A DNA stretch of 64,000 bases, from NCBI RefSeq assembly GCF_003334385.1, contig NZ_QOWN01000001.1; one strand, 5' to 3'. This DNA is from Escherichia coli. GTDB taxonomy: Bacteria > Pseudomonadota > Gammaproteobacteria > Enterobacterales > Enterobacteriaceae. Numbering within the stretch: position 1 is the first letter of the stretch; each line of letters begins with the position of its first letter. The position numbers are program-made. Positions 21,001 through 24,000 of this stretch are shown here, one piece after another.

Positions 21001-24000
21001 TATTTTCTACTAAGTGTTTTACCAGACATACACGTGTTTTCATAAACAGCCCTATAAGTGTTTTCATTAAGCATTGCTGTACACATTGCTTTGTCTGAAA
21101 CACATCCAGTTTAGTAAATCTTTACGTTAGCTAAAATCAGTTTAAAGCTGCTGTAAAACCTTTTTGTTTAAGCAATCAATCTGCTATTCGATTTTACTGA
21201 TGTTGCGTTTAACCTTTTCTGAGTTTTTGTGTTTTTAGTCGTTAACCTGAGACAAGTGTCTTTACGTAAAAACGCAAATCCGACTGAGATAACCTGGTGT
21301 GATTTACGGTGTGCTTGCGACGATTTTGTTAAATGGTTCTATGGATGATTTTGTGACGATGAGATTGATAAGATGATTAACTGGCCCTGGTGTTTTTTCT
21401 CAGTGCAAGGTGATTATCTTTATCATAAGGCTCTTTTCAGAAAAAGCGTGATGATTGGTTCTGGTGTTTTGATTCAGATGAGATTTACGTTATCGATGGT
21501 TAATCGTTTTTATGGTGTGTTGAAAAGTAACGTTTTCAGGATAAGAAAATCGATTCTGATATTGGTGAACTTTGTTCTTGTGGCAGGGTTATCTGTAAAC
21601 AGGTTTTAAGTGCGCTATTCGGCTCTGTGATTGAGTTGTGTGGTTAAGCTGTAGGTTTTGGTGTTGTTGTTGATTTGCATTGCCAGGAAGCGTTCTGGTT
21701 GCGTTTCTGGTGTTTTGTTCGAATGTTCTGTGGATCCTTTTCCCTTCAGGCTTTTCTCGTCGTCCATGTCGTTTTTAAATCCATTCATGCTGTTGTTGCG
21801 TGTTTTGCTGCTGTGTGCAGGATTATCTTTTCGTTCCGGGATGGTTTGTTCCGTTTCAATCACTCTTAATCAGAGAGTTGTAGCATTGCTCAATGCCGGA
21901 TGCCGTAAAGTTTTACCGCGTTGATGAATGATGTGAAGTCAATCCAAATCAACGGAGATCTCTCATCATGAATCAACCAATACACAATGCTTACTGGTTA
22001 TCCCGTTTTGACATCCTTCTCGACAGTGCCCTGGCGCAGCACCGTGCCGTCTCGTTAATCCGAGTGGATTTACGTTTCCCTGAGTATATGCCTGTCACCA
22101 TCATGGATCCCGATCCGGATTCAGCGGTGATTTCTCGTTTTTTTGCATCCCTGAAAGCCAAAATTCAGGCTTACCAGCGGAAAAAAAGATGTGCCAATCA
22201 GCGTGTGCATGCAACCAGCCTGCGTTATTTCTGGTGCCGGGAGTTCGGCAAGATGTATGGCAGGAAACATTATCACGTGATATTACTGCTCAACAAAGAT
22301 ACCTGGTGCTCGATCGGGGATTTCAGCGAACCGTCTTCGCTGGCGACGATGATCCAGGAGGCATGGTGCAGCGCCCTGCATCTTGAGCCCTGGCAAGGCG
22401 ATGGCCTGGTCCATTTTTCCAGGTGGACGCCTTCCCGTAAACCAGCATCGTCTGATGCTCGCCCTTCTTCCGATGACACGCCTTTGTCGGGTGGATGTTC
22501 TGATACCTGGAAGGCTTCAGACAAAAAGCCGGGTGAAGCCGCTGTTCTCTGGATCAAGCGTGGTGATGTGGGAGCGCTGCAGAAAGCCCGGAACAGAGCC
22601 AGTTATCTCGTAAAATATGAAACGAAGTTGCATAACGGTTCCGGGCAACGTAATTATGGTTGCAGTCGTGGGCCGGGACGTCTACTGGATGGCAGGAGAA
22701 GCCTGTAAAACGGCATCCGGAGCCTGAGCTTATGCCACAGTAAGGGCGTCAGCCAACGCCCTTAGCTCGTTTTCTGAAAAAGTCGTCCTGAAGTCATGTA
22801 TCTGCTTCCATTCTCATGTTCATATTTCACCTTACGCTTTCACTATCTGTTATTGGAAGTACCGATTTATTTTGGTGCTGCTCACTTACGGTCATTCACG
22901 GAAGAGGATGGTGGTGAACCGTACGATCCTGGCTGCTGGCGAGGGAAGGTTCAGGACTGGGATGGAGCAGGTTTAGTGGTGGAAGATGAGTCGGAATTTC
23001 TGACTGGTCAGTGAGGTGATGATCTGGTGTAACTCAATCTGCTAGGGTAAACTCTCCTTGCTTTTGCGCACAAGCAGTGGGCCCTGGTTCGCTTATGTCC
23101 TGCATCTACAAGCGAATGACTGACCGGAGACTCCCATATCTGGTCAGTCGCCCATTTTTATTTTCTACCAAATCAGACAAGCATACCGTAATAAATAACG
23201 CCAGTCCCCTGTCGCTCTCGTGTGCTCTACTGGAATGTTGTTGATGGAGATATCCAGATGAAAGAGCTTACATCTTCGACAGGACTATAAATTATGTAGT
23301 AAAGAGTTCCCCGGAGAAAGGGGCTGTTCTGCTGTTCTCATCAAGTCTGGCATGTTCAGGAAATTATTCGAAAATATTAACTGAATGAGCGAAATGTGAT
23401 TTACCTTCTTTTCTGTTCATTGTAAATTTCCTCTTTGCTAACGCAAATCATTATCATTACGCCTTTGGCAAAGGGAAATTTATGAAGAACAAATATATCA
23501 TTGCTCCGGGCATTGCCGTGATGTGTTCTGCAGTTATATCATCAGGTTATGCCAGTTCTGATAAAAAAGAAGATACGCTTGTTGTTACTGCCTCCGGGTT
23601 CACTCAGCAGCTCAGAAATGCCCCGGCCAGTGTCTCAGTCATTACTTCAGAACAACTGCAAAAAAAACCGGTTTCAGATCTGGTCGATGCAGTAAAAGAT
23701 GTTGAAGGGATTAGTATCACTGGTGGGAATGAAAAACCGGATATCAGTATACGTGGTCTAAGTGGCGATTACACGCTGATTCTGGTCGATGGACGACGTC
23801 AGAGCGGTCGGGAATCCAGACCAAACGGCAGCGGCGGTTTTGAAGCCGGATTTATCCCTCCTGTGGAAGCAATTGAACGCATTGAAGTGATCCGTGGCCC
23901 TATGTCTTCCCTGTATGGTTCTGATGCCATCGGAGGGGTCATTAATATCATAACCAAACCAGTTAATAACCAAACATGGGATGGCGTACTTGGACTTGGG

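What the first reader, a model, noticed from the sequence alone, without database searches (positions are those of the whole stretch)
23443..23460. Fur-box-like element upstream of iha
The match is consistent with iron-regulated expression of this siderophore receptor and adhesin.
Basis: partly seen in the sequence, partly recalled or inferred. Interest (0 to 1): 0.2.

Follow-up and report, generated by a model that had tools for sequence, protein, structure and literature searches.

The report
Known Fur box upstream of ireA
The iron-repressor (Fur) binding site is real, but it sits in front of the siderophore-receptor gene ireA, not iha, and it has already been published for an identical sequence in uropathogenic E. 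coli CFT073, so the finding is ordinary.

Summary
The window is the E. coli APEC O1 chromosome, in a pathogenicity island carrying kps, ireA, pgt, pap and tia. The full element is an invariant 26-bp block at 23436-23461, lying 46 to 21 bp upstream of the ATG at 23482. It holds two overlapping 19-mers: 23437-23455 (GCTAACGCAAATCATTATC, 15/19 to consensus) and 23443-23461.

The downstream gene is ireA, not iha. It passes the NCBIfam IreA equivalog model (1518 bits, cutoff 1197), fails the Iha model (378 bits, cutoff 924), and is 34% identical to CFT073 Iha.

The 19-mer at 23437-23455 is the motif published under the Fur ChIP-seq peak upstream of ireA in CFT073 (Banerjee et al., mBio 2020). In that study ireA mRNA rose about 39-fold in a fur mutant. 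The CFT073 upstream region differs from the window at 1 of 773 bases.

As a single site the match is weak, with about 0.7 expected per 64 kb. The two-register array is reached by 3 of 300 shuffles. The block is invariant in alleles 88-91% identical, and 18 of 20 distant IreA orthologue loci have their best Fur site just upstream of the gene.

Verdict: real, functional and already known; the gene name is wrong.

The parts
23437..23455 (+). 19-bp Fur box GCTAACGCAAATCATTATC, at -45 to -27 from the ireA ATG. It is identical to the motif published under the CFT073 ireA Fur ChIP-seq peak.
   Evidence: 15/19 to consensus. PWM 14.3 bits. PMC7157518 Table S5B lists this sequence for ireA/c5174, q = 0.00057. 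The CFT073 coordinates 4935945-4935963 contain the ChIP summit at 4935947.
23443..23461 (-). Second Fur-box register, shifted by 6 bp. Together with the first register it forms a four-hexamer array.
   Evidence: PWM 14.6 bits on the minus strand and 11.7 on the plus strand. The two-register sum of 28.9 is the top score in the window and is reached by 3/300 shuffles.
23436..23461 (.). 26-bp block that is invariant in all ireA upstream alleles compared. It is flanked on both sides by variable positions (23429-23435 and 23462-23473).
   Evidence: Alignment A1 of 7 alleles, including STEC1590 (88%) and NCTC9112 (91%). 20 of 102 positions vary, and P(invariant run of 26 or more) is about 0.03.
23442..23456 (.). 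Core 7-1-7 inverted repeat CGCAAAT-C-ATTATCA, matching TGATAATnATTATCA at 11/14. This is the probable seat of one Fur dimer.
   Evidence: The overlapping 7-1-7 registers at 23436 and 23448 match 9/14 each.
23400..23405 (+). Candidate -35 hexamer TTTACC (inferred, not mapped).
   Evidence: Best-scoring sigma-70 candidate, TTTACC-17-TAAATT, at 8/12. Neither hexamer has a variable position among the alleles.
23423..23428 (+). Candidate -10 hexamer TAAATT (inferred). The predicted transcription start is near 23435, which puts the Fur array at about +2 to +27.
   Evidence: The alternative -10, TATCAT at 23452-23457 inside the box, has its -35 in the variable stretch.
23471..23476 (+). Shine-Dalgarno-like AAGGGA, 5 nt before the ATG.
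   Evidence: Read directly from the sequence.
23482..25530 (+). ireA coding sequence (682 aa), a TonB-dependent siderophore receptor. This is the regulated gene.
   Evidence: ORF list. NCBIfam NF010011, 1518.5 bits. RefSeq WP_000792544.1 in APEC O1. One amino-acid difference from CFT073 IreA.

Best explanation
The element is the Fur operator of ireA. When iron is plentiful, Fe2+-loaded Fur dimers bind the array of four GATAAT-like hexamers at 23436-23461, probably as two dimers on overlapping 7-1-7 repeats. This array lies immediately downstream of, or overlaps, the ireA promoter and sits 21-46 bp before the start codon. It therefore falls within the RNA polymerase footprint, and Fur binding blocks transcription initiation. 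When iron is scarce, Fur leaves the DNA and ireA is transcribed.

Shown by others on an essentially identical sequence in CFT073: Fur occupancy in vivo centred on this motif, strong Fur-dependent repression, and no RyhB effect.

Shown here: the sequence match, the array structure, its invariance among alleles, and conservation of a Fur site at the same position in distant orthologues.

Inferred: that these exact bases are the contact site, the position of the promoter, and that APEC O1 behaves like CFT073.
For: - The site's 19-mer is the motif published under the CFT073 ireA Fur ChIP-seq peak. Peak amplitude is 1485, and the summit at 4935947 falls inside the motif at 4935945-4935963.
- The window and CFT073 differ at 1 of 773 upstream bases, at 23291, far from the box.
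- RNA-seq ratios were fur-/wt 39.4, ryhB-/wt 1 and fur-ryhB-/wt 45.3. Proteomics gave about 185-fold.
- It is the only site above 7 bits anywhere in the 773-bp intergenic region or in the ChIP peak interval.
- The two-register score is the best in the window and is reached by 3/300 shuffles.
- The 26-bp block is invariant between variable flanks.
- In 18 of 20 loci encoding IreA orthologues (45-61% identity; Providencia, Limnobaculum, Budvicia, Leminorella, Gallibacterium, Aggregatibacter, Haemophilus), the best Fur-PWM site of the whole ~4.4-kb locus lies within 170 nt upstream of the ATG, mostly at -62 to -24.
- A 72%-identical homologue on a Salmonella plasmid has GATAATGATAACGCTTCTCATTATA at -48 to -24.
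- In APEC DE205B, ireA is iron-repressed.
Against: - As a single 19-mer the match is weak: 14.3 bits against 17-26 for the reference sites, with about 0.7 expected per 64 kb.
- I found no footprint, EMSA or mutagenesis of this site.
- The transcription start is unmapped, and the tool's promoter scan found no sigma-70 candidate upstream of the gene. Overlap with the promoter is therefore inferred.
- ChIP-seq resolution does not by itself fix the contact to these bases.
- The reference PWM comes from sites that FIMO picked with the consensus, which makes it partly circular.
- The orthologue test is biased by AT-rich intergenic DNA and by relatedness among the loci.
Confidence: 0.9

Rival explanations
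1. The Fur-box resemblance is fortuitous AT-rich promoter sequence. On this view Fur regulates ireA through a different site, or indirectly.
For: The single-site PWM score is below all 12 reference sites, and similar scores occur about 0.7 times per shuffled 64 kb. Three coding-region 19-mers in the window score higher.
Against: No other sequence in the ChIP peak interval or the 773-bp intergenic region scores above 7 bits. The ChIP summit falls 2 bp inside the motif. The block is invariant while its flanks vary. Orthologues keep a Fur site at the same position although their sequences cannot be aligned.
Confidence: 0.05
2. The conserved block matters mainly as part of a long inverted repeat (23414-23444 with 23461-23491). 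On this view the repeat forms a 5'-UTR hairpin that sequesters the Shine-Dalgarno sequence and the AUG, so control is post-transcriptional in addition to, or instead of, Fur repression.
For: The repeat has 31-nt arms that are 71% complementary. The RNA fold of 23425-23484 is -16.9 kcal/mol, z = -4.6, with 0/200 shuffles folding as well. The 3' arm contains AAGGGA and the 5' arm contains CCUCU.
Against: There is no covariation support: 271/500 shuffles do as well, with only 4 distinct sequences. The fold is lost in the STEC1590 allele (-5.5 kcal/mol, z = -0.2). The best promoter candidate starts transcription near 23435, inside the 5' arm, so the full hairpin would not be in the mRNA. RyhB has no effect, and fur deletion alone gives about 39-fold derepression. 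I also chose the folded region after seeing the first fold.
Confidence: 0.05

Closest known systems
Fur operator of ireA (c5174) in uropathogenic E. coli CFT073 (Banerjee et al., mBio 2020, PMC7157518)
   Same: The 19-mer GCTAACGCAAATCATTATC is identical and sits at the same distance from the ATG (-45 to -27). The upstream 773 bp differ at 1 base, and IreA differs at 1 residue. It is the same element in a different strain.
   Different: The strain and island context differ: APEC O1 here against CFT073 in the paper. I found no direct Fur data for APEC O1 itself.
   Same: iha is also a pathogenicity-island TonB-dependent receptor gene with a Fur ChIP-seq peak and strong derepression in a fur mutant (peak 649; 181-fold). 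It has a Fur-like site upstream, ATAAATTATTCTCATTATT, 15.3 bits, at -70 to -52.
   Different: It is a different gene. The proteins are 34% identical, each fails the other's NCBIfam equivalog cutoff, and the promoter sequences are unrelated. iha is not in this window.
Canonical E. coli Fur boxes such as iucA, chuA and sitA (19-bp GATAATGATAATCATTATC; hexamer and 7-1-7 models of Escolar and of Baichoo & Helmann, from my own knowledge and cited in PMC7157518)
   Same: It has the same architecture: adjacent GATAAT-like hexamers in F-F-x-R-R order, overlapping 7-1-7 repeats, and a promoter-proximal position upstream of an iron-uptake gene.
   Different: It is more degenerate. The left half (GCTAAC GCAAAT) matches 4/6 and 4/6, and the PWM score is 3-12 bits below the reference sites. 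It probably lies just downstream of the -10 rather than over the -35/-10 region, though this is inferred.

Membership tests
Fur box (operator of the E. coli Fur regulon) | Match to the 19-bp consensus, or at least three adjacent GATAAT-like hexamers, or overlapping 7-1-7 repeats | tested here: met
   15/19 to consensus. Four hexamers match 4, 4, 6 and 4 of 6. The 7-1-7 registers match 11/14, with neighbours at 9/14. PWM scores are 14.3 and 14.6 bits, and the array score is reached by 3/300 shuffles. It is weaker than the reference sites.
Fur box (operator of the E. coli Fur regulon) | Position overlapping the promoter or RNA polymerase footprint of the regulated gene | tested here: inconclusive
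   The site lies 21-46 bp upstream of the ATG. The best conserved sigma-70 candidate, TTTACC-17-TAAATT, puts the box at about +2 to +27. An alternative -10, TATCAT, lies inside the box. I found no mapped transcription start.
Fur box (operator of the E. coli Fur regulon) | Fur occupies the site in vivo or in vitro | not testable with these tools
   The literature reports a Fur ChIP-seq peak (amplitude 1485) with its summit inside the identical motif in CFT073 (PMC7157518). I found no footprint or EMSA.
Fur box (operator of the E. coli Fur regulon) | Expression of the downstream gene depends on Fur and iron | not testable with these tools
   The literature reports a fur-/wt RNA ratio of 39.4 and protein about 185-fold in CFT073, and induction by iron depletion in APEC DE205B.
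Fur box (operator of the E. coli Fur regulon) | Conservation of the site among alleles and orthologues | tested here: met
   The 26-bp block is invariant in 7 alleles. In 18 of 20 orthologue loci the locus-best Fur site is just upstream of the gene.
iha (IrgA-homologue adhesin / bifunctional siderophore receptor) | The protein passes the Iha equivalog model NF010012 or is near-identical to Iha | tested here: not met
   377.8 bits against a cutoff of 924. Genuine Iha scores 1616.7 on the same model. The window protein is 34% identical to CFT073 Iha.
ireA (IreA family TonB-dependent siderophore receptor) | The protein passes the IreA equivalog model NF010011 and matches annotated ireA | tested here: met
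   1518.5 bits against a cutoff of 1197, covering 1-682 of 682. The DNA is 100% identical to annotated ireA in APEC O1 and in many other genomes.

The most novel reading that the evidence does not exclude
The Fur array sits in the loop of a long imperfect inverted repeat (23414-23444 with 23461-23491). The 3' arm of this repeat holds the ireA Shine-Dalgarno sequence and start codon, and the 5' arm is anti-SD-like. If a transcript starts upstream of about 23414, this would be a translation-blocking 5'-UTR hairpin adding a second layer of control. A CRP-like half-site (AAATGTGA, 23392-23399) could also tie ireA to carbon status.
Probability: 0.07. Interest if true: 0.3.

Novelty: already known. 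Interest (0 to 1): 0.08.

Why it matters
It matters little beyond correct annotation. ireA is an ExPEC/APEC virulence-associated receptor and a vaccine candidate, and its iron and Fur control is already established. This check has three uses. It corrects the gene name from iha to ireA. It ties the sequence in this APEC O1 window to the published CFT073 ChIP-seq motif. It also shows that a Fur site at about -60 to -25 is a conserved trait of the IreA family across Enterobacterales and Pasteurellaceae.

Tried and rejected
- A consensus search with up to 3 mismatches found no hits in the window. The site needs 4 mismatches, so consensus counting alone cannot establish it.
- The tool's sigma-70 scan found no plus-strand promoter candidate upstream of ireA. 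My looser scan gave only 8/12 candidates.
- The original ireA paper (Russo et al. 2001, PMID 11553562, PMC98753) is not held, so I could not check whether it already described a Fur box. A search for a mapped ireA transcription start found nothing.
- Rfam on 22600-23700 gave only sub-threshold chance matches. The best was mir-316 at 26 bits against a gathering score of 80, which reflects the hairpin shape only.
- The hairpin around the box has no covariation support and is not kept in one allele. I rejected it as the main explanation.
- I considered a Zur box and a full CRP site at 23389-23413. Only one half-site (GAAATGT / TGTGA) is present and there is no palindromic partner. This was read from the sequence and not tested further.
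- I considered a divergent gene as the Fur target. The upstream gene (21968-22708, inovirus Gp2 family) is on the same strand and 773 bp away, and nothing is annotated on the minus strand.

Full report
**What is in the sequence.** Window 23443-23460 reads GCAAATCATTATCATTAC. It lies 22-39 bp upstream of the ATG at 23482, which opens a 682-codon ORF at 23482-25530 on the plus strand. The best match to the classical Fur consensus GATAATGATAATCATTATC starts 6 bp further upstream, at 23437-23455: GCTAACGCAAATCATTATC, 15/19. Read as hexamers the element is GCTAAC GCAAAT C ATTATC ATTACG, matching 4, 4, 6 and 4 of 6. The central 7-1-7 repeat at 23442-23456 matches TGATAATnATTATCA at 11/14, and the registers 6 bp to either side match 9/14.

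**Is it more than chance?**
- No 19-mer in the window is within 3 mismatches of the consensus. Two are within 4.
- I built a weight matrix from 12 other Fur sites listed in Table S5B of Banerjee et al. 2020. The two registers score 14.3 and 14.6 bits, below all reference sites (17-26 bits), and about 0.7 such sites are expected per shuffled 64 kb.
- Three 19-mers elsewhere in the window score higher, but all lie inside coding sequences: an AAA-domain protein, papC and a nuclease.
- What sets this site apart is the array. The summed score of two registers 6 bp apart is 28.9, the best in the window (next 21.0), and only 3 of 300 dinucleotide shuffles reach it.
- It is the only sequence above 7 bits in the 773-bp intergenic region.

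**What the gene is.** The window is 100% identical to E. coli APEC O1 (NC_008563.1). That record annotates the ORF as ireA, encoding a TonB-dependent siderophore receptor. The protein scores 1518.5 bits on the NCBIfam IreA equivalog NF010011 (cutoff 1197). It scores only 377.8 bits on NF010012 (cutoff 924). NF010012 is the Iha model, because annotated CFT073 Iha scores 1616.7 on it and only 397.9 on the IreA model. IreA and Iha are 34% identical, and the iha promoter is unrelated in sequence. The annotation of the whole window lists no iha: it shows kps capsule genes, a CP4-like island backbone, ireA, IS elements, pgtABCP, the pap operon, tia and an integrase.

**Published evidence for the same sequence.** Banerjee et al. 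[quoted passage not shown]
- The Fur ChIP-seq peak has amplitude 1485 at 4935947.
- RNA-seq ratios are fur-/wt 39.4, ryhB-/wt 1 and fur-ryhB-/wt 45.3. Proteomics gives about 185-fold.
- Their Table S5B gives the motif under this peak as GCTAACGCAAATCATTATC (q = 0.00057), the same 19-mer as window 23437-23455.
- In CFT073 the motif lies at 4935945-4935963, so the peak summit falls inside it, and the ATG is at 4935990.
- The 773 bp upstream of ireA differ between CFT073 and the window at one base (23291). The proteins differ at one residue.
- In APEC strain DE205B, ireA expression rises under iron depletion (PMC4988017, PMC6979363).

**Comparative evidence gathered here.** ireA is present in 342 of 5426 complete E. 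coli genomes, sometimes on plasmids.
- I aligned seven upstream alleles chosen across the identity range, including STEC1590 at 88% and NCTC9112 at 91%. They show an invariant block at 23436-23461 flanked by variable positions at 23429-23435 and 23462-23473.
- With 20 of 102 positions variable, the chance of an invariant run of 26 or more is about 0.03.
- In roughly 147 genomes, homology to the window begins only near 23380. In the one such locus I fetched (MRY15-117), an IS2 element lies just upstream. About 100 bp carrying the box therefore travel with the gene.
- A scan of one genome per species found IreA orthologues at 45-61% identity in Providencia, Limnobaculum, Budvicia, Leminorella, Gallibacterium, Aggregatibacter, Haemophilus and others.
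- In 18 of 20 such loci, the best Fur-matrix site of the entire ~4.4-kb locus lies within 170 nt upstream of the receptor's ATG, mostly at -62 to -24. One example is CATTATGATTATCATTATC at -42 to -24 in P. alcalifaciens. About 3% would be expected per locus by position alone. AT-rich intergenic DNA and relatedness among the loci inflate this result somewhat.
- A 72%-identical, truncated homologue on a Salmonella salamae IncFIB plasmid has GATAATGATAACGCTTCTCATTATA at -48 to -24.

**Mechanism.** The most likely mechanism is classical Fur repression. Fe2+-Fur dimers bind the hexamer array and exclude RNA polymerase.
- The transcription start is not mapped.
- The best candidate promoter is TTTACC (23400-23405), a 17-bp spacer, then TAAATT (23423-23428). 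It matches 8/12, and both hexamers sit in blocks that are invariant among the alleles. This predicts a start near 23435 and puts the Fur array at about +2 to +27.
- An alternative -10, TATCAT (23452-23457), lies inside the box, but its -35 falls in the variable stretch.
- In either case the array lies within the polymerase footprint.
- Shown by others: occupancy and Fur-dependent repression. Shown here: the sequence match, array structure and conservation. Inferred: the exact contact bases, the promoter position, and transfer of the result to APEC O1.

**Side observations.** The box lies in the loop of a long imperfect inverted repeat, 23414-23444 with 23461-23491.
- As RNA, 23425-23484 folds at -16.9 kcal/mol (z = -4.6) and would pair CCUCU with the AAGGGA Shine-Dalgarno sequence.
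- The NCTC9112 allele keeps the fold (-11.3 kcal/mol), but STEC1590 does not (-5.5, z = -0.2).
- Pair counts show no covariation beyond shuffles, with only 4 distinct sequences available.
- The favoured promoter would start inside the 5' arm.
- I treat the hairpin as unproven and probably incidental. The Rfam hit to a microRNA hairpin model is far below threshold.

**Verdict.** The Fur-box-like element is real, conserved and almost certainly functional. It is the already published Fur site of ireA, not of iha. Novelty: already known. Interest: low.

Noticed in passing
window 23414-23444 and 23461-23491 (core 23425-23441 with 23465-23480): A long imperfect inverted repeat encloses the Fur box. 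As RNA it would pair an anti-SD-like CCUCU with the ireA Shine-Dalgarno sequence and AUG (-16.9 kcal/mol, z = -4.6). It is kept in the NCTC9112 allele, lost in STEC1590, and shows no covariation signal with 4 distinct sequences. Its relevance depends on the unmapped transcription start.
   Followed up: partly
window 23392-23399: A CRP-like half-site, AAATGTGA, has no matching right half. Its notional centre at 23402.5 would be at -61.5 if the -10 is TATCAT (23452-23457). The G of TGTGA is T in the STEC1590 allele.
   Followed up: no
window ~23380 (about 100 bp upstream of the ireA ATG): In about 147 of 342 ireA-positive E. coli genomes, homology to this window starts only here. In the one such locus fetched (MRY15-117) an IS2 element lies just upstream. 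ireA with its ~100-bp leader and Fur box occurs in several chromosomal contexts and on plasmids (15 places).
   Followed up: partly
window 23323-23338: An 8-bp tandem repeat, GCTGTTCT, varies in copy number among ireA upstream alleles. There are 2 copies here and in CFT073, 3 in MS8345-type genomes, and about 1 in the divergent alleles. It lies about 145-160 bp upstream of the ATG.
   Followed up: no
window 21411-21425: TGATTATCTTTATCA matches the 7-1-7 Fur motif with only 2 mismatches. It lies in an unannotated intergenic stretch about 550 bp upstream of the inovirus Gp2-family gene. It is probably chance, and no nearby ChIP peak was identified in the CFT073 tables.
   Followed up: no
window 25546-25568: A perfect 10-bp GC-rich stem-loop, ACCTGAGGCC-GTG-AGCCTCAGGT, lies 16 nt after the ireA stop codon. 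The T-run is on the minus strand only, so it may terminate the convergent IS256 remnant rather than, or as well as, ireA.
   Followed up: no
L011 (Salmonella enterica subsp. salamae plasmid CP053317.1) 1417-2799: A 72%-identical IreA homologue on an IncFIB conjugative plasmid is interrupted after 460 codons. It keeps its own strong Fur array at -48 to -24.
   Followed up: partly
whole window (NC_008563.1 3305946-3369945, reverse strand): The window is an APEC O1 pathogenicity island. It carries kps capsule genes, a CP4-like backbone with the cbtA/cbeA toxin-antitoxin pair, ireA, IS256/IS3/IS21 elements, pgtABCP, the pap operon with papG-II, tia, a phosphoethanolamine transferase and an integrase.
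   Followed up: partly
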